A stretch of DNA of 64,000 nucleotides from the human T2T-CHM13v2.0 reference genome, Homo sapiens. Shown piece by piece: positions 10,337 through 38,819 of this stretch. The notes under the pieces were generated by a model. It saw only the letters and a list, made by a program, of their open reading frames with translations. It did no database searches and was not told where the DNA came from. A program made the position numbers and the translations under genes. Where the stretch lies: the NCBI RefSeq assembly GCF_009914755.1, contig NC_060948.1; one strand, 5' to 3'. Numbering within the stretch: the first letter of the stretch is position 1; each line of letters begins with the position of its first letter.

Positions 10337-10522
10337 CTTGGCCACCAGGCCCATGTCGTCCATGGTGGCCCTCTCGTGGGGGAACCGGGCGAAGGTGCTC
10401 TCGATCTTGCTGATGACGGCATCCACGTTGACGGAGTCCTGCGGGCGTCCTCTGGGGAAGTAGAAGGTCGGAATGCTTTGGCTCGTGGCCGGGGGCAGAG
10501 GCTCTTCTTTCCGTGTCTGAAC
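10337..10522 (-). CDS. PPP2R3B: PPP2R3B coding exon 2, 62 codons VQTRKEEPLPPATSQSIPTFYFPRGRPQDSVNVDAVISKIESTFARFPHERATMDDMGLVAK
   Basis: Acceptor ctcttcag|GTT at 10523/10522 and donor AAG|gtacgt at 10337/10336; 186 nt, phase 0/0; contains the IPxFYFPxG motif conserved in B'' subunits; in frame with exon 1. Confidence 0.96.
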
Positions 10523-11279
10523 CTGAAGAGTCGACAGACAGCGCTCAGTTAGAACCTGGGAGCATCGAACGCCTTCTTCACCCGGACAACACACGGGGCC
10601 TCTCTAGGGCCGACAGTGCTGAGGCCACCTGATCCCAGCCGGGAGAGGACACACTGCAATCCCTGCGGGGGACCACACACGTACTCCACTGCAGGGCCCA
10701 CCTTCACCCAGGAGGCCACACCATGCTGCCATGGACCCCACTCTGGGTGGCGGCTCTGCGCCACTGAGCCCCCATCACACCGAGCAGGGCCCTGGGGACA
10801 AGGGCAGCTACGTGCCCCAGGCACCTGAGAGCCCAGCCAGGACCCACTCCCGATTCCCATGAGCCACACCACTGACCCCACCACACCTGGCAGGGACCTG
10901 GGGAAAAGGGCAGCCACGCACCCCAGACGCCTGAGAGCTCAGACGTGGAGAGGCACAGGTGCCGTCCACAGGCAACCCTGTCCCTGGAGCCCGGAAGACT
11001 CACATTCTGAGAGGCAGAGGCAGGGCAGGCAACCACACAGCCAGGAGAAGGGGTCGACCACCAGGTACTGCTGCGGACACGCCTCAGCCCCTCACCCGGT
11101 GCACAGCCCACGCCCACGGGCTCTTGGCCCCACTCAGCACCAGCACTCCCCTCACCCAGTATATCTGCAGGCCCCAGAACACTCACTCAAGAGTCTCCTG
11201 CTTGCATCTCTACACAACCTGCGAGGTGGACATTTGATCTCATCCCGTGATGTTAAAACACCATCTGAAACAGTTAACA

Positions 11280-12137: not shown

Positions 12138-15100
12138 CCCTGCATCTCCCCGAGCCCGCGATCCCACAGTGCATCTCCCCGAGCCCACGATCCCGCAGTG
12201 CATCTCCCCGAGCCCACGATCCCGCAGTGCATCTCCCCAAGCCCACCATCCCACAGTGCATCTCCCCGAGCCCACCGTCCCACAGTGCATCTCCCCGAGC
12301 CCACCATCCCACAGTGCATCTCCCCGAGCCCGCAATCCCACAATGCATCTCCCCGAGCCCGCGATCCCACAATGCATCTCCCCGAGCCCAGCATCCCACA
12401 ATGCATCTCCCCGAGCCCAGCATCCCACAATGCATCTCCCCAAGCCCGCGATCCCGCAGTGCATCTCCCCGAGCCCGCGATCCCGCAGTGCATCTCCATG
12501 AGTCCACGATCCCACAATGCATCTCCCCGTGCCCGCAATCCCACAATGCATCCCCCCGAGCCCACCATCCCACAGTCATCTCCCTGTGCCCACCATCCCA
12601 CAATGCATCTCCCCAAGCCCGCGATCCCACAGTGCATCTCCCCGAGCCCACGATCCCACAGTGCATCTCCCCGAGCCCACCATCCCACAATGCATCTCCC
12701 CGAGCCCACCATCCCACAATGCATCTCCCCGAGCCCACCATCCCACAATGCATCTCCCCGAGCCCACCATCCCACAATGCATCTCCCCGAGCCCACCATC
12801 CCACAGTGCATCTCCCCGAGCCCGCGATCCCACAGTGCATCTCCCCGAGCCCGCGATCCCACAGTGCATCTCCCCGAGCCCACCAACCCACAGTGCATCT
12901 CCCCGAGCCCACCATCCCACAGTGCATCTCCCCGAGCCCACCATCCCACAGTGCATCTCCCCGAGCCCACGATCCCACAGTGCATCTCCCCGTGCCCACG
13001 ATCCCACAGTGCATCTCCCCGAGCCCACCATCCCACAGTGCATCTCCCCGTGCCCACCATCCCACAGTGCATCTCCCCGAGCCCACGATCCCACAATGCA
13101 TCTCCCCGTGCCCACGATCCCACAATGCATCTCCCTGAGCCCACGATCCCACAATGCATCTCCCTGTGCCCACGATCCCACAGTGCATCTCTCTGAGCCC
13201 ACCATCCCACAATGCATCTCCCCGTGCCCGCAATCCCACAGTGCATCTCTCGAAGCCCACGATCCCACAATGCATCTCCCCGAGCCCACCATCCCACAAT
13301 GCATCTCCCCGTGCCCGCAATCCCACAGTGCATCTCTCCAAGCCCACGATCCCACAGTGCATCTCCGCGTGCCCACGATCCCACAGTGCATCTCCCCGAG
13401 CCCACGATCCCACAGTGCATCTCCCCGAGCCCACGATCCCACAGTGCATCTCCCCGTGCCCACGATCCCACAGTGCATCTCCCCGAGCCCACGATCCCAC
13501 AATGCATCTCCCCGAGCCCGCGATCCCACAGTGCATCTCCCCGAGCCCGCGATCCCACAGTGCATCTCCATGAGTCCACGATCCCACAGTGCATCTCCCC
13601 GTGCCCACGATCCCACAGTGCATCTCCCCGAGCCCACCATCCCACAGTGCATCTCCCCGTGCCCACCATCCCACAGTGCATCTCCCCGAGCCCACGATCC
13701 CACAATGCATCTCCCCGTGCCCACGATCCCACAATGCATCTCCCTGAGCCCACGATCCCACAATGCATCTCCCTGTGCCCACGATCCCACAGTGCATCTC
13801 TCCGAGCCCACCATCCCACAATGCATCTCCCCGTGCCCGCAATCCCACAGTGCATCTCTCGAAGCCCACGATCCCACAATGCATCTCCCCGAGCCCACCA
13901 TCCCACAATGCATCTCCCCGTGCCCGCAATCCCACAGTGCATCTCTCCAAGCCCACGATCCCACAGTGCATCTCCGCGTGCCCACGATCCCACAGTGCAT
14001 CTCCCCGAGCCCACGATCCCACAGTGCATCTCCCCGAGCCCACCATCCCACAGTGCATCTCCCCGAGCCCACCATCCCACAATGCATCTCCCCGAGCCCA
14101 CCATCCCACAATGCATCTCCCCGAGCCCACCATCCCACAATGCATCTCCCCGAGCCCACCATCCCACAATGCATCTCCCCGAGCCCGCGATCCCACAGTG
14201 CATCTCCCCGAGCCCGCGATCCCACAGTGCATCTCCCCGAGCCCACCAACCCACAGTGCATCTCCCCGAGCCCACCATCCCACAGTGCATCTCCCCGAGC
14301 CCACCATCCCACAGTGCATCTCCCCGAGCCCACGATCCCACAGTGCATCTCCCCGTGCCCACGATCCCACAGTGCATCTCCCCGAGCCCACCATCCCACA
14401 GTGCATCTCCCCGAGCCCACGATCCCACAGTGCATCTCCCCGTGCCCACGATCCCACAATGCATCTCCCTGAGCCCACGATCCCACAATGCATCTCCCTG
14501 TGCCCACGATCCCACAGTGCATCTCTCTGAGCCCACCATCCCACAATGCATCTCCCCGTGCCCGCAATCCCACAGTGCATCTCTCGAAGCCCACGATCCC
14601 ACAATGCATCTCCCCGAGCCCACCATCCCACAATGCATCTCCCCGTGCCCGCAATCCCACAGTGCATCTCTCCAAGCCCACGATCCCACAGTGCATCTCC
14701 GCGTGCCCACGATCCCACAGTGCATCTCCCCGAGCCCACGATCCCACAGTGCATCTCCCCGAGCCCACGATCCCACAGTGCATCTCCCCGTGCCCACGAT
14801 CCCACAGTGCATCTCCCCGTGCCCACGATCCCACAGTGCATCTCCCCGAGCCCACGATCCCACAATGCATCTCCCCGAGCCCGCGATCCCACAGTGCATC
14901 TCCCCGAGCCCGCGATCCCACAGTGCATCTCCATGAGTCCACGATCCCACAGTGCATCTCCCCGTGCCCACGATCCCACAGTGCATCTCCCCGAGCCCAC
15001 CATCCCACAGTGCATCTCCCCGTGCCCACCATCCCACAAAGCATCTCCCCGAGCCCACGATCCCACAATGCATCTCCCCGTGCCCACGATCCCACAATGC

Positions 15101-16520
15101 ATCTCCCTGAGCCCACGATCCCACAATGCATCTCCCTGTGCCCACGATCCCACAGTGCATCTCCCCGTGCCCGCAATCCCACAGTGCATCTCCCCGTGCC
15201 CGCAATCCCACAGTGCATCTCTCGAAGCCCACGATCCCACAATGCATCTCCCCGAGCCCACCATCCCACAATGCATCTCCCCGTGCCCGCAATCCCACAG
15301 TGCATCTCTCCAAGCCCACGATCCCACAGTGCATCTCCGCGTGCCCACGATCCCACAGTGCATCTCCCCGAGCCCACGATCCCACAGTGCATCTCCCCGA
15401 GCCCACGATCCCACAGTGCATCTCCCCGTGCCCACGATCCCACAGTGCATCTCCCCGAGCCCACGATCCCACAATGCATCTCCCCGAGCCCGCGATCCCA
15501 CAGTGCATCTCCCCGAGCCCGCGATCCCACAGTGCATCTCCATGAGTCCACGATCCCACAGTGCATCTCCCCGTGCCCACGATCCCACAGTGCATCTCCC
15601 CGAGCCCACCATCCCACAGTGCATCTCCCCGTGCCCACCATCCCACAGTGCATCTCCCCGTGCCCACCATCCCACAAAGCATCTCCCCGAGCCCACGATC
15701 CCACAATGCATCTCCCCGTGCCCACGATCCCACAATGCATCTCCCTGAGCCCACGATCCCACAATGCATCTCCCTGTGCCCACGATCCCACAGTGCATCT
15801 CTCCGAGCCCACCATCCCACAATGCATCTCCCCGTGCCCGCAATCCCACAGTGCATCTCTCGAAGCCCACGATCCCACAATGCATCTCCCCGAGCCCACC
15901 ATCCCACAATGCATCTCCCCGTGCCCGCAATCCCACAGTGCATCTCTCCAAGCCCACGATCCCACAGTGCATCTCCGCGTGCCCACGATCCCACAGTGCA
16001 TCTCCCCGAGCCCACGATCCCACAGTGCATCTCCCCGAGCCCACGATCCCACAGTGCATCTCCCCGTGCCCACGATCCCACAGTGCATCTCCCCGAGCCC
16101 ACGATCCCACAATGCATCTCCCCGAGCCCGCGATCCCACAGTGCATCTCCCCGAGCCCGCGATCCCACAGTGCATCTCCATGAGTCCACGATCCCACAGT
16201 GCATCTCCCCGTGCCCACGATCCCACAGTGCATATCCACGAGTCCACGATCCCACAATGCATCTTCCCATGCCCACGATCCCACAATGCATCTTCCCATG
16301 CCCACGATCCCACAGTCCATCTCCCCGTGCCCACAATCCCACAGTGCATCTCCCCAAGCCCACGATCCCACAGTGCATCTCCCCGTGCCCACGATCCCAC
16401 AGTGCATCTCCCCGAGCCCACGATCCCACAGTGCATCTCCCCGAGCCCGGGATCCCGCAGTGCATCTCCCCGAGCCCGGGATCCCACAGTGCATCTTCCC
16501 GAGCCCACAACGCATTCCCG
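12138..16520. repeat. Large 29 bp VNTR (~150 copies) tgcatctccccgagcccacgatcccacag
   Basis: Strict 29 bp period over ~4.4 kb, with variant units arranged in higher-order blocks. Confidence 0.98.
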
Positions 16521-17179: not shown

Positions 17180-19061
<1,882 letters not shown>

Positions 19062-19479: not shown

Positions 19480-20935
19480 CACAGTCCATCACACGGATGA
19501 GCAGGCAACATCGACCTCAATGCACCGAGTGCTCTAGTTACAAGACAAAGGTCTGACTGCAGAAAGAAAACAGCATTCACGTACATGGGAGACACAGAGG
19601 ACAGAAAGACAGGAGATATATGTGACTTAAGGACCCAGAGGCTACACATTTTTTTTTGAGATGGAAAAAGAGCAGGCAGACAGTAGAGAAAGCTGGTGTC
19701 GCTGTATTAACATCCATGAAGTGACACAAGGTGATGGACAGACCTGGAGACAGACAGGCCACCAAGGAACGCTGAAGAGGTCAGTCAGGGGAAGACAGGC
19801 TGATGCTAACTTTATCCATGCCTGACAACGCAGCCTCGGCACTGATCAAGTAAACACCACTGGACACAAACTGAGCCCGCTAGGCAAGGCGGAGCCCACC
19901 CACCCCGGGCACAGACACAGGGAAGGCCGGGACCACCCACCCTGGGCACAGACACGGGGAAGGCCGGGACCACCCACCTTGGGCACTGACGGGGGGAAGG
20001 CCGGGATCACCCACCCCGGGCACTGACGGGGGGAAGGCCGGGACCACCCACCCCGGGCACAGACACGGGGAAGGCCGGGACCACCCACCTTGGGCACCGA
20101 CGGGGGGAAGGCCGGGACCACCCACCTTGGGCACCGACACGGGGAAGGCCGGGACCACCCACCCCGGGCACCGACGGGGGGAAGGCCGGGACCACCCACC
20201 TTGGGCACCGACACGGGGAAGGCCGGGACCACCCACCCCGGGCACTGACGGGGGGGAAGGCCGGGACCACCCACCCCGGGCACCGACGGGGGGAAGGCCG
20301 GGACCACCCACCTTGGGCACCGACGGGGGGAAGGACGGGACCACCCACCCCGGGCACCGACGGGGGGAAGGCCGGGACCACCCACCCCGGGCACCGACCG
20401 GGGGAAGGCCGGGACCACCCACCCTGGGCACCGACGGGGGGAAGGCCGGGACCACCCACCCTGGGCACCGACCGGGGGAAGGCCGGGACCACCCACCCTG
20501 GGCACCGACGGGGGGAAGGCCGGGACCACCCACCTTGGGCACCGACGGGGGGAAGGCCGGGACCACCCACCTTGGGCACCGACGGGGGGAAGGCCGGGAC
20601 CACCCACCTTGGGCACCGACACGGGGAAGGCCGGGACCACCCACCCCGGGCACTGACGGGGGGAAGGCCGGGACCACCCACCTTGGGCACCGACCGGGGG
20701 AAGGCCAGGACCACCCACCCTGGGCACCGACGGGGGGAAAGCCGGGACCACCCACCATGGGCACTAATAGACGAGAGATGGAACAAACAACACAACCACC
20801 CCATGCGGGCACAGAAGATTTACAAGCTTAATCTCATGGACAGAAATAGACTCGGCCCCAGCACAGCTGCAGAGCACACATTCTTTTCAACACACACAGC
20901 TCACTTGGGAACTGGCCACCTCTCGGGCTGAGCTG
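19480..20935 (+). mobile_element. Degraded L1M ORF2 endonuclease-region fragment hosting a VNTR
   Basis: gaaagctggtgtcgctgtattaacatc and gcagagcacacattcttttcaa match the L1 EN region and lie on either side of the array. Confidence 0.6.
19893..20765. repeat. 37 bp VNTR (~23 copies) ggggaaggccgggaccacccaccYYgggcaccgacgg
   Basis: aaggccgg at 19923, 19960 and onward with a 37 bp period. Confidence 0.97.
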
Positions 20936-23413: not shown

Positions 23414-24513
23414 GCGGCCAACGTTGGCCGTGGAAGGCTGTGCCCGTCAGAGGACCCCTGAAAACAGTACCGTGCTGCCCGGCCGGGAGCGTCCGAAGGC
23501 GGAGGTGCGGCACCCCAACACGTCCAGTGGCTCCAACACGGGTGCTCCCTGACAACCCTGAGGGTGTGTCCAAGTGGGGTGGACCCAACAGACAGAGCCC
23601 ACACTCATGCGCGGAGTGAAAGCAGCCAGGAAACGTCCCCTTCTCCCCCAACACCACCCCCACAAATACCCCCAAATATGCCTGTAATTCCTCCACCACC
23701 CCTCAGACAACATGCATTTCACACGTCTGTCCTCACTCCCTAAAAACGTGGAAACCTATTTTCTGTAAAATGAAGCAAACTTCTGTAAACGGAATTCATG
23801 ATTTCCCAGAAACTGACTTTTTAAAAATAAACAGTCCTCACAGGTGCATCGTCACCACAGCCCCCCACAGAAGAGCCAGGGCCCCACTGCAGGGCTGAAG
23901 GGCTTCCTCATCCAGCCACGTGCGAGCTAATCACCTCATTGACTCTGCGACCAGCGAGCCCGCACCGCCCAGCACCTCCCACCATCTAGAGCAAATCCCG
24001 CACGAGGCTGATCTCGCTCTTCGCAGGTTAAGAGGATTTTAAAGACACCAGCCTCGCCCTTACCCACTTACAGGCAAAATGTCAAAACCTGGAAGACAGA
24101 GGTCAAAAACTCCGAAGGAGTGCAAAAGTTGATGTGAGATCTTACAGAAAAAATTTCAATTAAAATATCAACAGAAAGAAGTGGGTCTTCCTCCCCCTTC
24201 AAGCAGGATGCCTTGGTTCACCTTGATGTTAGGCCACTAGTTCCAGACTCCTGGAACTGAGTTTGAAAAGCGCGTCTGATGTGCCACGTGGGTGTGAGGC
24301 GCCCGCCACGCACACCCTGTCTGGATGAAATTCGGATCAGATTCGGCCGCAGCCAAACCCTAAATTCTCAAATTATACTGGGATTGTCACAGGAAGACTC
24401 TTACACGTTTAAATCACATGGTACTCGTAAAACTAACTCATACAATATACACGGGGTACAGACACAAATTTTACTTCCCTGAGCACTTATGAGAACTGAG
24501 ATTAAATTTCAAA

Positions 24514-24790
<277 letters not shown>

Positions 24791-25370
24791 TTCAAAGCCA
24801 CTGAGTTACTGAATAAAACCACGCTGCATAAATAGTCCGGTATGTGAGTGATATCTCAACCGACTCTTAAGTTAGCCAGTGGGAAGGAATGCTGGGTATT
24901 GCAATAACGCCGGGAAAGTTTCACCCACCCGACGCCTTTACGAAGGGTGAAGGAGTTTCCCGATGTTTATTACCAGCAATGCAAGGTATATTTAAATTAA
25001 AAATCTGTCTGCAGCGAACACTCCCAGGCGCTGACGGCTCTCACCCGCCTTGGTTGATCACAGCAAGGCGCGCACTCACAGCCAAAACTCCCGGGAAAGG
25101 AGCGAGTGCTCTTTTCAAAGCCCGGTTTTCCTAACAAGCTTGGCACCGCTTCCCACAGAGCAGCACCCGGTTTTCGGCGGCGTGCGGCCCGAGCGGGTCC
25201 CCTGCGCCCACAACTGGCCCTGTAAATCTGGCGTTTGGGCCCCGCCACGCAACAACGGGTGCACGGCCAGCAGCGGCGAGCGGGGGCCCACGCGGGGCCG
25301 GGAGGGCAGGGCTCGCCGGGCCGGGAGGCCTCGCCCGGTGTCGGGCAGCCGCGGGGCGCGCGGGGCTGAC

Positions 25371-25496
25371 CTGCTGGAAGGCCTTCAGCCGCTTCTTGAA
25401 CCGAGAGGGCAGCACGAAGTCGCAGCCGCGGGCCAGTGAGGCCAGCTCCTGGCGCAGGTCGGGGTCCTGGCGCAGCGAGCGCTCGCGGAGTCGCAT
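25371..25496 (-). CDS. PPP2R3B: Putative alternative first coding exon of PPP2R3B encoding a PR72-like N-terminus MRLRERSLRQDPDLRQELASLARGCDFVLPSRFKKRLKAFQQ
   Basis: ATG at 25496 (ggcggcATGc); 126 nt = 42 codons; donor CAG|gtcagc in phase 0, compatible with exon 2; inside an intronic CpG island; near-identical to the PPP2R3A PR72 N-terminus as recalled from memory. A further in-frame ATG lies at 25610. Confidence 0.85.
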
Positions 25497-25900
25497 GCCG
25501 CCGGCGCGCAGGGCTCTCCGCGGGCCGGGCCGGGCGCCGCGCTCTCGGGGCAGGGCCGGGCCGGGGCCGGCGGGGCGCTGCAGGCGTGGCCCGGGCTCAG
25601 CGCGCTCCATGCGTCGCCCGCCAGGCGCTCTGGGGCCGGGGCCCGCGCCGCGCGCATTCCTCAGGCTGAGGAGGGCGCATGGCGCCGGGGGTGGGGGCGG
25701 CCGCCTCTCCCGACCCGCGACTGTGCAGACCCGGCTGCTCCCGGCGCTGCTCTCCTCTCCTCCTTCTCCGCTCCCTGCACTGCCCTCCGCTCCCTCCGGT
25801 CCTCTTCTCTCCTCTCCCCGTTCGCTCCGGGCTGGGCCGTCCGGCCGGGCAAGGGGGCGCTTTCTGCACCGCGGCAGCCGTCACGTGGCTCGCCCTGGAG

Positions 25901-26015
25901 CGCGCATCAACAGGTCCCCGAGAGGAGAGCCTGGGCGGAACGCGCATCAACAGGTCCCCGAGAGGAGAGCCTGGGCGGAACGCGCATCAACAGGTCCCCG
26001 AGAAGAGAGCCTGGG
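25901..26015. repeat. 40 bp tandem repeat x3 upstream of the alternative exon
   Basis: cgcgcatcaacaggtccccgaga at 25901, 25941 and 25981. Confidence 0.93.
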
Positions 26016-26599
26016 GACGGCCTCGGGGACCCAGGCGAAGGCGCTCCCCGCGAGAAGTGAGGTCCCCCCCCTCCACGACAACACCAGAGCTGGCTGCAGG
26101 CTCGGTGCCGGCTCCGGCTTGCCCCTCCAGAGCACAGGGCACGCCAGGTGCAGCTGCGCCTCCACAAACACGCACGGCAGCCCAGACATCCCGGCAGCCC
26201 GGCATCAAAGCGCGCCGGCATCTCCGCCCCTCCCCAAACTTCAGGAGTTTCTAGAATACAGCTAAGCTGCAGTGGGCATCCAGGATCTCGTCTTCTCTGC
26301 CACTGCTCACTGTGATAACTGCGCTTGTTTGCAATCGTATTTAGAACAAGAAAAGAGGGGCGGTGGAAAAGGGGGACGGGCAACTTTAAATGAGGGTGAG
26401 CTGACATTCCGGGGGCCTGCACCTCGATCCCACCGGGAAGGAGACAGGATACCTTCGGGCTGAGGGTCAGAAACTGGCCACATCCCTGCCAGGCTGAACG
26501 CTGTCAGCAGAAAGCCTCCCGGGTCCCCGATCAGGAAGGTCCTGCGTGACCGCCTGCATCTGTTACAGTCAATAAACCTCCTTGGACGGGTCACTATCA

Positions 26600-26860
26600 C
26601 CCCGAGTCAACAGCGTGCACTGGGCTCTCCCGCTGCCGCACGCTCTGTTGAGTCTGGAAAAACGCAGGATGACACGGATCTACCACTGTGGGGTCACGCA
26701 GAGGAGTTTCCCTGCCCTGAAAAACGTCTGTGTGGCACTGACGCACCCAACCCCCGCAAGCCCCGATCTGTTTCCTGTCTCCATCGTTTTCCTTTTTCCG
26801 AGTGTCCTAGACTTGGAACCAGAAGTCTGCAGCCATCTCAGACTGGCCTTTTCTTCTCCT
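26600..26860 (-). mobile_element. Old L1M 3'-end fragment
   Basis: gatctgtttcctgtctccatcgttttcctttttccgagtgtc...tcagactggcctttt resembles the antisense L1MC-type 3' end. Confidence 0.55.
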
Positions 26861-27135
26861 GCAACCTTCCACACCACCTCTGACGCCCACCACAGCCCCC
26901 CACCCGCAAGGCCCCTTCCAACTCTTCTTAGGGGTACGCCCCTCTCCACTTCCTTCTCTTCCACCTCCTTCCCTTCTCCAGCCATCCTCGGATCCCTCCA
27001 TCCTTCTCACTTCCTTACTGTCCTTGAGGATTCAGAAGTCGGCCTCTGACCCCCGGTAAGTCTCCAAAGGGAAGCTTTAAGACAGCACCAGAGGGAATGT
27101 GCTCAAACCACCAGGAGACGATTTAAACAAGTGCA

Positions 27136-28269: not shown

Positions 28270-29985
28270 AGAGCCCCCATGGGGCCATCCACTACCGTGT
28301 ACAGGGACGGGCCGTCCACAGTGGGGCCGCCATGGGGCTGTCTATACACTACTGTATGCAGGGACGGGCCGTCCACACCCAGTGGGGCCGCCATGGGGCT
28401 GTCTATACACTACTGTGTACAGGGACGGGCCGTCCACAGTGGGGCCGCCATGGGGCTGTCTATACACTACTGTATACAGGGACGGGCCGTCCACAGTGGG
28501 GCCGCCATGGGGCTGTCTATACACTACTGTATGCAGGGACGGGCCGTCCACACCCAGTGGGGCCGCCATGGGGCTGTCTATACACTACTGTATGCAGGGA
28601 CGGGCCGTCCACACCCAGTGGGGCCGCCATGGGGCTGTCTATACACTACTGTATGCAGGGACGGGCCATCCACACCCAGTGGGGCCACCATGGGGCTGTC
28701 TATACACTACTGTGTACAGGGACGGGCCGTCCACACCCAGTGGGGCCACCATGGGGCTGTCTATACACTACTGTGTACAGGGACGGGCCGTCCACAGTGG
28801 GGCCGCCATGGGGCTGTCTATACACTACTGTATACAGGGACGGGCCGTCCACAGTGGGGCCGCCATGGGGCTGTCTATACACTACTGTATGCAGGGACGG
28901 GCCGTCCACACCCAGTGGGGCCGCCATGGGGCTGTCTATACACTACTGTATGCAGGGACGGGCCGTCCACACCCAGTGGGGCCGCCATGGGGCTGTCTAT
29001 ACACTACTGTATGCAGGGACGGGCCGTCCACACCCAGTGGGGCCGCCATGGGGCTGTCTATACACTACTGTGTACAGGGACGGGCCGTCCACACCCAGTG
29101 GGGCCACCATGGGGCTGTCTATACACTACTGTATGCAGGGACGGGCCGTCCACAGTGGGGCCGCCATGGGGCTGTCTATACACTACTGTGTACAGGGACG
29201 GGCCGTCCACACCCAGTGGGGCCGCCATGGGGCTGTCTATACACTACTGTATGCAGGGACGGGCCGTCCACAGTGGGGCCGCCATGGGGCTGTCTATACA
29301 CTACTGTGTACAGGGACGGGCCGTCCACACCCAGTGGGGCCGCCATGGGGCTGTCTATACACTACTGTGTACAGGGACGGGCCGTCCACAGTGGGGCCGC
29401 CATGGGGCTGTCTATACACTACTGTGTACAGGGACGGGCCGTCCACACCCAGTGGGGCCACCATGGGGCTGTCTATACACTACTGTGTACAGGGACGGGC
29501 CGTCTACAGTGGGGCCGCCATGGGGCTGTCTATACACTACTGTATGCAGGGACGGGCCGTCCACACCCAGTGGGGCCGCCATGGGGCTGTCTATACACTA
29601 CTGTGTACAGGGACGGGCCGTCCACACCCAGTGGGGCCACCATGGGGCTGTCTATACACTACTGTGTACAGGGACGGGCCGTCCACACCCAGTGGGGCCA
29701 CCATGGGGCTGTCTATACACTACTGTATGCAGGGACGGGCCGTCCACACCCAGTGGGGCCGCCATGGGGCTGTCTATACACTACTGTGTACAGGGACGGG
29801 CCATCCACACCCAGTGGGGCCACCATGGGGCTGTCTATACACTACTGTATGCAGGGACGGGCCGTCTACAGTGGGGCCGCCATGGGGCTGTCTATACACT
29901 ACTGTGTACAGGGACGGGCCGTCCACACTTGACAGGACCACCACAGGGCTGTCTATACACTACTGTGTACAGGGACGGGGCCGTC
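28270..29985. repeat. 57/61 bp VNTR (~29 copies) gggacgggccgtccac(accc)agtggggccRccatggggctgtctatacactactgtRtRca
   Basis: Two interleaved unit lengths that differ by accc. Confidence 0.97.
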
Positions 29986-35449: not shown

Positions 35450-38017
<2,568 letters not shown>

Positions 38018-38265: not shown

Positions 38266-38589
38266 TACTCTCGTCCCTGCGGATCTACGGGTGCCTCGAA
38301 CGTGGGGCGCGTTCCTGGGGCTGGAGGCGGCGCCCAGGGGCAGCGCAGGGCCCGGCCCGGGGGTTCCCGGGGGTTCGAGCCCGCTGGGCCGGGGGGCGGC
38401 GAGCGGGGCTGTGGGCCAGGCCCCGGGCTGCTCCCCGTCCCCCGGGGTCGGCTGGTCCCGCCCGGGCGCCTTGATCCGGCGCAGGCAGTCCTGCAGCATC
38501 CGCTGCGTGCTGGCCTCGCTGAGCCAGTACAGGAACAGCTCGTCCACCTTCATCTTCAGGACCGGCTGCAGCACTTTGCCGGGCGGCAT
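38266..38589 (-). CDS. PPP2R3B: PPP2R3B (PP2A B''beta / PR70) coding exon 1, 108 codons MPPGKVLQPVLKMKVDELFLYWLSEASTQRMLQDCL...RRSAGTRV
   Basis: ATG at 38589 in context cccgccATGc; 324 nt = 108 codons; ends at donor GTA|gtaagt (intron starts 38265); peptide recognised as the PR70 N-terminus; inside a CpG island. Confidence 0.96.
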
Positions 38590-38802
38590 GGCGGGGGCTG
38601 GGCCCGCGGCGCCCCCGGACGCCCGCGCCCCGCCCCGCCCCGGGGGCTTCGGTCCGCCCCGGACCGACCTCGGTGATGCGAGCACGGCCCGCTGAGGGGG
38701 CGCGGCGCAGGGAACAGGGCCCGCGCCTCGGGAACTGCGCGGACTCGCGGGGCGCGGGGACCGAGGAGGGGGCGCGGTCCGGCCCGCGCTGCTCAGGGCA
38801 GC

Positions 38803-38819
38803 TTCAAAACGGGCGCGCC
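38803..38819 (-). promoter_or_regulatory. Candidate CDE/CHR cell-cycle element GGCGCGC-CCGT-TTTGAA
   Basis: The minus strand reads GGCGCGCCCGTTTTGAA: a canonical CHR (TTTGAA) preceded by a 4-nt spacer and a GC-rich CDE-like site, about 215 nt upstream of the ATG. Confidence 0.5.

What the first reader, a model, noticed from the sequence alone, without database searches (positions are those of the whole stretch)
25371..25610. Hidden PR72-type alternative first exon of PPP2R3B in an intronic CpG island
Seen in the sequence: an ATG (G at -3), 42 open codons and a CAG|gtcagc donor in phase 0, so the exon can replace exon 1 and splice in frame to exon 2 (...KAFQQ|VQTRKEEP...). It sits in its own CpG island about 13 kb downstream of the main promoter. 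Established knowledge, recalled rather than searched: PPP2R3A makes PR130 and PR72 from alternative promoters, and PR72 begins MMIKETSLRRDPDLRGELAFLARGCDFVLPSRFKKRLKSFQQ. By my count that is 34/42 identical, including an unbroken LARGCDFVLPSRFKKRLK. Inference: such conservation between ancient paralogs, in a region where neighbouring L1s are barely recognisable, implies purifying selection. It points to a second PPP2R3B isoform 66 aa shorter than PR70, with a basic N-terminus (RFKKRLK). I cannot tell whether it is already annotated.
Basis: partly seen in the sequence, partly recalled or inferred. Interest (0 to 1): 0.93.

Follow-up and report, generated by a model that had tools for sequence, protein, structure and literature searches.

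The report
Second start exon of PPP2R3B gene
This is a real, already annotated alternative first exon of the phosphatase-subunit gene PPP2R3B, conserved from fish to humans and matching the first exon of its sister protein PR72, and it is likely the little-studied heart and muscle form that was named in 2008.

Summary
The exon is real and protein-coding, but it is not hidden. A 42-codon frame (ATG 25496) ends at a phase-0 donor (25371). It is 34/42 identical to the PR72 first exon of PPP2R3A with saturated silent sites, and is kept in PPP2R3B orthologues from fish to primates. RefSeq already lists an exon at 25371-25571. PMC2529318 (2008) states that PPP2R3B makes two subunits from alternative first exons: PR70/B''beta1 and a heart/skeletal-muscle PR70/B''beta2 (PPP2R3L product). 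I could not see the beta2 sequence; that it uses this exon is inferred (about 0.85), because it is the only such frame in the 27.7-kb intron and the mouse counterpart PR59/B''delta2 carries the orthologous exon. Two refinements: an upstream in-frame ATG (25610) is conserved in placental mammals, so the product may be 547 rather than 509 aa; and the exon holds the only PSORT-type nuclear signal (PSRFKKR) of PR72 and of the beta2-type models, lost in the mouse-type protein. Most likely it swaps the N-terminus on an unchanged PP2A-binding core and retargets the phosphatase in muscle. Already known; low interest, though the isoform looks neglected.

The parts
24981..26380 (.). CpG island around the exon; likely the alternative promoter (GC boxes, no TATA, MEF2 or CArG consensus upstream)
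   Evidence: GC 0.70, CpG o/e 0.86, 147 CpG; motif scan of 24501-27000. Promoter activity not measured here.
25371..25571 (-). Alternative first exon as annotated by RefSeq; its 5' end is not at an AG, so it is modelled as a 5'-terminal exon
   Evidence: hub gene table; flanks
25371..25496 (-). Conserved 42-codon coding block (PR72-type N-terminus)
25497..25610 (-). 38-codon in-frame upstream extension from ATG 25610 (MERAEP...), Pro/Gly/Arg-rich; start Met conserved in placental mammals; its ATG lies 39 nt upstream of the RefSeq 5' end
25389..25409 (-). PSRFKKR, a PSORT pat7-type monopartite nuclear localisation motif (codons 30-36 of the block); predicted, untested
   Evidence: rule recalled from PSORT
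25365..25373 (-). Phase-0 splice donor CAG|GTCAGC
10337..10522 (-). Shared exon 2 (PR70 residues 109-170) with the Ile125-Phe128 hydrophobic motif that binds the PP2A A subunit
38266..38805 (-). Canonical exon 1 (108 codons) of PR70/B''beta1, which the alternative exon replaces; no similarity to it and no paralogous hit in the genome

Best explanation
This is a conserved, protein-coding alternative first exon of PPP2R3B, likely transcribed from its own CpG-island promoter and likely the exon of the published heart/skeletal-muscle isoform PR70/B''beta2, which would swap a PR72-type N-terminus onto the unchanged PP2A-binding core. Shown here: open frame, phase-0 donor, CpG island, homology to the PR72 first exon, conservation in both paralogous lineages. 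Inferred: the transcript splices 25371 to 10522 and gives 547 aa (ATG 25610) and/or 509 aa (ATG 25496, by a later start site or leaky scanning). The protein keeps the Ile125-Phe128 motif and both EF-hands, so it would form a calcium-regulated PP2A trimer like PR70. The new N-terminus is predicted to be a targeting module: its PSRFKKR motif would favour nuclear import, and the longer invariant stretch likely binds a partner shared with PR72 in striated muscle. The two-promoter layout predates the PPP2R3A/PPP2R3B duplication. Confidence is about 0.95 for the coding exon, 0.85 for identity with beta2, and 0.5 for the nuclear-targeting role.
For: Paralogue 34/42 with saturated silent sites. The chr3 exon has the junctions and the 267-nt next exon of mouse Ppp2r3a exons 3-4 and heads 529-530-aa B''alpha proteins. 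Of the best 120 of 350 homologues, 60 join the peptide to the exon-2 motif; named sources include primates, bats, carnivores, whales, platypus, birds, turtles, amphibians and teleosts. A tree of the shared core separates 20 beta-named from 15 alpha-named carriers with 100/100 support. PMC2529318: two subunits by alternative first exons, beta2 heart/skeletal-muscle specific, closest mouse protein PR59/B''delta2. The paper's delta2 probe primer reads FPSRFQK and has its single best match in the intron inside this exon; record P0274 has that motif at 34-40 (probe ends at coding nt 120) and the RQ|VH junction of the paper's exon table. The other three annotated extra exons give no ATG-led frame in phase with exon 2. 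PSRFKKR is the only pat4/pat7/bipartite hit in 3 of 3 full-length PR72 and 3 of 3 beta2-type proteins tested and is absent from PR70 exon 1 and P0274, matching the paper's PSORT calls and GFP patterns: PR72 nuclear, PR70/beta1 and PR59/delta2 mostly cytoplasmic. A-subunit binding needs only residues 105 onward.
Against: I saw neither the beta2 sequence (CAI41975) nor the original paper (PMID 11173861 not held). No human junction reads, CAGE or peptides were available; four peptide strings found 0 papers. Most orthologous proteins are gene models. The 2008 paper did not test beta2 for binding or localisation and calls the PR59 and PR70 N-termini of rather low homology. The heart/muscle pattern is second-hand, and no MEF2 or CArG consensus was found near the island. 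The truncated PR48, which lacks any first exon, is reported nuclear, so the motif is not needed for import; three of four other divergent rodent-like records keep pat7. The RefSeq 5' end lies downstream of ATG 25610.
Confidence: 0.85

Rival explanations
1. The exon is real, but the published PR70/B''beta2 (PPP2R3L product) uses another 5' end, so this isoform exists only as database models and has never been described in print.
For: The beta2 sequence was not seen; the 2008 text I read never compares beta2 with PR72's N-terminus; 'PPP2R3L' occurs in only 4 held papers.
Against: No other ATG-led phase-0 frame with a good donor in intron 1; other annotated exons cannot give a distinct N-terminus; delta2, the closest mouse protein to beta2, carries the orthologous exon.
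Confidence: 0.1
2. It is an internal cassette exon spliced between exon 1 and exon 2, adding the peptide to PR70 instead of replacing the N-terminus.
For: An in-frame, open AG acceptor exists at 25577, and 3 of 120 homologue models carry both the exon-1 motif and the peptide.
Against: That acceptor has a weak tract (11/20 pyrimidines, 2 T; exon 2 has 13 and 7); Met1 is invariant in 119 of 119; own CpG island; the PR72 paralogue starts 68 of 69 full-length proteins; the RefSeq 5' end is not at an AG.
Confidence: 0.03
3. The exon is a recently silenced or minor relic in humans; the short intron-retained read-through is the main product.
For: The human donor is imperfect and the donor 6 nt downstream used in many other vertebrates is absent; a read-through ORF of 159 aa is in the protein database (P0003).
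Against: The 42 residues are identical in the simian orthologues seen (Aotus, Pongo, Pan, Chlorocebus, Nasalis); X and Y copies are identical across the exon; RefSeq models it spliced; read-through tails are not conserved between species.
Confidence: 0.03

Closest known systems
PR70/B''beta2 (PPP2R3L product, CAI41975), as described in PMC2529318
   Same: Same gene, alternative first exon, distinct N-terminus on the PR48 core; closest mouse protein PR59/B''delta2.
   Different: Sequence not seen, so identity is inferred; which ATG it uses is unknown to me.
PR72/B''alpha2 of PPP2R3A
   Same: 34/42 identical first-exon peptide, same phase-0 junction to the exon with the hydrophobic motif, same PSRFKKR motif.
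   Different: PR72 has 44 codons (donor 6 nt later), an AT-rich upstream region and no upstream in-frame extension in 68 of 69 full-length records; the PPP2R3B exon sits in a CpG island with a conserved upstream ATG in placentals.
Mouse PR59/B''delta2 (Ppp2r3d)
   Same: Orthologous first exon and junction; a proven PP2A subunit in pull-downs.
   Different: Diverged (25 of 40 aligned residues for P0274), lacks the pat7 motif, broadly expressed and mostly cytoplasmic.
PR70/B''beta1 (NM_013239)
   Same: All exons from exon 2 onward.
   Different: 108-residue unrelated N-terminus without a pat7 motif; cytoplasmic as a GFP fusion.

Membership tests
Coding alternative first exon | ATG-led open frame ending at a GT donor in the phase of the next exon | tested here: met
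Coding alternative first exon | Protein-coding constraint across species | tested here: met
   pS 0.86, pN 0.16; 25 of 42 positions invariant in 119 top hits, a set chosen by similarity
Coding alternative first exon | Own transcription start and junction reads in human tissue | not testable with these tools
   CpG island and RefSeq exon only; no CAGE or RNA-seq access
PR72-type N-terminal exon of PP2A B'' genes | Homology to the PR72-specific exon and the same place before the shared core exon | tested here: met
PP2A B''/PR72 regulatory subunit | Hydrophobic A-binding motif and EF-hand core retained | tested here: met
   exon 2 in frame and matching PDB 4i5l/4mew; EF-hand Pfam domains on full-length orthologous models; human exons 3-13 lie outside the window and were not fetched
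PP2A B''/PR72 regulatory subunit | Binds the PP2A A and C subunits | not testable with these tools
   Reported for PR70/beta1, PR72 and PR59/delta2, not for beta2
PR70/B''beta2 (PPP2R3L product) | N-terminal sequence equal to CAI41975 | not testable with these tools
   record and original paper not available; indirect support
PR70/B''beta2 (PPP2R3L product) | Heart and skeletal-muscle expression | not testable with these tools
   stated in PMC2529318 citing the 2000 paper
Classical monopartite NLS | PSORT pat7 pattern | tested here: met
   kept in 119 of 120 and 120 of 120 listed hits; rule recalled
Classical monopartite NLS | Needed for importin-dependent nuclear entry | not testable with these tools
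   correlation with published GFP patterns only

The most novel reading that the evidence does not exclude
The PR72-type N-terminus is an uncharacterised vertebrate targeting module, kept almost invariant in two paralogues since before the fish-tetrapod split, that carries the nuclear signal and a partner-binding surface of muscle PP2A-B''. Human muscle would then hold a second PR72-like, likely nuclear holoenzyme from a pseudoautosomal, dosage-sensitive gene; this isoform was named in 2008, untested in the papers I read, and poorly modelled in mice, whose orthologous exon has drifted and lost the signal.
Probability: 0.4. Interest if true: 0.4.

Novelty: already known. Interest (0 to 1): 0.2.

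Why it matters
As a discovery it matters little: the exon is annotated and the isoform very likely published. Its practical value is that the form looks overlooked. A 2022 review calls PPP2R3A unique in having two start sites, and the 2008 study did not test beta2. Studies of PPP2R3B dosage, variants or overexpression that use only the 575-aa PR70 may miss the muscle form; variants in 25371-25610 would be read as intronic on NM_013239; and PR72 loss could be buffered by a near-identical N-terminus in humans and fish but less so in mice (inference).

Tried and rejected
Pfam: no family for the 42- or 80-aa peptide or exon 1. PDB by sequence: only chance saposin hits at E 0.8-0.9; no solved structure holds this peptide. 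AlphaFold2 of a monkey beta2-type protein with 41 aligned sequences: mean pLDDT 48, residues 1-103 under 50, so the three helices drawn on the peptide are uninformative and no fold search was run. Profile search of 1.84 billion representatives: 85 hits, the weakest being drifted copies of the same exon; records are unnamed, so absence from invertebrates is not shown. Paper searches for the peptides (0 papers), for alternative promoters, cardiac or nuclear PR72/PR70 work and island methylation added no study of this isoform among the papers listed. PMID 11173861 not held. No complex prediction was sent: no partner is named by the evidence. Processed pseudogene or extra human copy rejected: only X, Y and chr3 match. 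Other extra RefSeq exons rejected as the source of a distinct N-terminus.

Full report
Observation. On the minus strand an ATG at 25496 opens 42 codons that end at the donor CAG|GTCAGC (25371) in phase 0; exon 2 begins in phase 0, so the join is in frame. The frame is also open from an ATG at 25610, giving 80 codons. The donor matches the consensus at 7 of 9 positions (exon 1: 6, exon 2: 7), and in the whole 27.7-kb intron only two ATG-to-phase-0-donor frames of 30 or more codons reach that score, both this exon. A CpG island spans 24981-26380. The X copy is identical over the exon; the 5 differences in 3126 bases lie outside it. The hub's table already lists a RefSeq exon 25371-25571, whose 5' end is not at an AG.

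Paralogue. A six-frame search of the genome gives 3 matches: X, Y and one on contig 3. The last is 34/42 identical; identity by codon position is 32, 36 and 15 of 42, 21 of 29 differing codons are synonymous, pS is 0.86 and pN 0.16, and the flanks are unrelated. It is the PR72 exon: its donor ACACAG|GTTTGA and the 267-nt next exon equal mouse Ppp2r3a exons 3-4 in Table 1 of PMC2529318, and it heads 529-530-aa proteins named B''alpha.

Orthologues. The peptide finds 350 proteins among 357 candidates; the best 120 were examined. Identity is 34-42 of 42; 60 of 120 continue into the exon-2 motif, and most of the rest run on into unrelated sequence that looks like intron read-through. 25 of 42 positions are invariant in 119 (P0073 left out for a duplicated stretch; the set is biased to close hits). 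A tree of the shared core only (35 rows; P0161 dropped for lack of the anchor motif) separates 20 beta-named carriers, teleost to primate, from 15 alpha-named carriers, ray to primate, with 100/100 support. Both genes therefore kept the exon since their duplication, before the teleost-tetrapod split; the midpoint root is not a tested root.

Start codon. Among 75 mammal-type hits, 31 models start within 15 residues of the block and say nothing; of the other 44 (one is the window's own ORF), 42 have a Met at the MERAEP-like position (38 by pattern, 4 variants by eye), 31-51 codons upstream in the pattern-matched set and in frame; one has Thr and one lacks it. Frameshifted cases would hide among the 31, so this is supportive, not proof. 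With PR70 at 575 aa the products are 547 or 509 aa. Neither ATG has a full Kozak context (C-3/G+4 and G-3/C+4), and RefSeq's 5' end lies between them, so both may be made.

What is in print. PMC2529318 (parts 1-6 of 7 read; figures not held, supplements not requested) says that two PR48-containing isoforms with different N-termini exist, PR70 and the PPP2R3L product, renames them PR70/B''beta1 and beta2, says they arise by alternative first exons, and gives beta2 as heart and skeletal-muscle specific, citing Schiebel 2000. That paper is not held and CAI41975 could not be fetched, so the link to this exon is indirect. Three lines support it. The other three extra RefSeq exons give no ATG-led frame in phase with exon 2. 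No rival frame exists in the intron at my thresholds. The mouse protein closest to beta2 is PR59/B''delta2; its probe primer translates FPSRFQK and best matches this exon, 16 of 22 bases, the top score on both strands of the intron, and unnamed record P0274 has that motif at residues 34-40, where the probe is said to end (nt 120), followed by the RQ|VH junction of the paper's exon table. P0274 aligns to the human peptide at 25 of 40. The exon has thus been cloned in mouse as a working PP2A subunit. The form seems neglected: 'PPP2R3L' is in 4 held papers, four peptide strings in none, and a 2022 review calls PPP2R3A unique for two start sites (PMC9707111, passages). The library lacks most subscription papers, so this is not proof of absence.

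Mechanism. The exon replaces residues 1-108 of PR70. A-subunit binding needs residues 105 onward (PMC4090178, passages and section 8), through Ile125 and Phe128 in exon 2 and the EF2 surface (PMC3698643, passages), so the isoform should assemble as a calcium-regulated trimer (inferred). The N-terminus would then set location and partners. With PSORT's rules (recalled), PSRFKKR in this exon is the only hit in 3 full-length PR72 and 3 beta2-type proteins, and is absent from PR70 exon 1 and from P0274. This matches the 2008 predictions and GFP data: PR72 nuclear, beta1 and delta2 mostly cytoplasmic. Against it, PR48 without a first exon is reported nuclear, and three of four other drifted records keep the motif. 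Conservation extends well beyond the motif, which points to a binding surface; the fold prediction was too weak to test this and no solved structure holds the peptide.

Rivals. An internal cassette exon is possible through a weak in-frame acceptor at 25577, and 3 of 120 models join exon 1 to the peptide, but the invariant Met, the island and the paralogue argue for a first exon. A relic is unlikely given identity across the simian orthologues seen.

Other papers seen: PMC10133272 (passages, sections 6 and 15): zebrafish ppp2r3b is expressed in somites and axial muscle, and the mutation is in an exon said to be in all detectable isoforms, so it does not separate them. PMC4612414, PMC12557939 and PMC8460442 (passages): no second PPP2R3B N-terminus in the passages shown; the words 'isoform' and 'exon' do not occur in the main text of PMC8460442.

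Verdict. Real, ancient, coding, already annotated and very likely already named. The additions are modest: the explicit homology of the PR72, beta2 and delta2 first exons, the conserved upstream start and the predicted nuclear signal. Interest 0.2.

Noticed in passing
proteins P0037 and P0070, homologous to window 25371-25496 and 10337-10522: Two chimpanzee gene models carry a slightly changed copy of this exon plus exon 2; P0037 continues into an NPIP domain (Pfam PF06409, E 1e-34). Suggests a chimpanzee duplicate fusing this promoter and exon to NPIP; no such copy found in the human genome. One paper search gave 6 listings, none evidently on this (listing only). May be a model artefact.
   Followed up: partly
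window 12141-16508, 17358-18836, 19896-20764, 28290-29985: Large tandem arrays in intron 1 (29-mer x151, 165-mer x9, 37-mer x23, 61-mer x28). The alternative exon lies about 14.8 kb from exon 2 on Y but 12.8 kb on X, probably array length variation.
   Followed up: no
window 25897-26015: Three copies of a 40-bp unit (97% matches) in the presumed promoter part of the island, about 300 bp upstream of ATG 25610; a possible promoter VNTR.
   Followed up: no
window 25365-25373: Orthologous models use either this donor or one 6 nt downstream (two extra residues; 34 vs 23 of 60 spliced models). The human sequence has only the upstream one; PR72 uses the downstream position.
   Followed up: partly
window 36941-37004 and 11187-11264: Two short RefSeq alternative exons with AG/GT ends: 64 nt (frameshifting) and 78 nt with in-frame stops; likely nonsense-decay exons or 5' UTR parts of forms that start in exon 2.
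   Followed up: no
proteins P0270-P0274: Unnamed, strongly drifted copies of the peptide with a 3-residue insertion, one matching mouse PR59/B''delta2; the invariant Cys and the basic patch are changed in some, a lineage-specific relaxation of an otherwise frozen sequence.
   Followed up: partly
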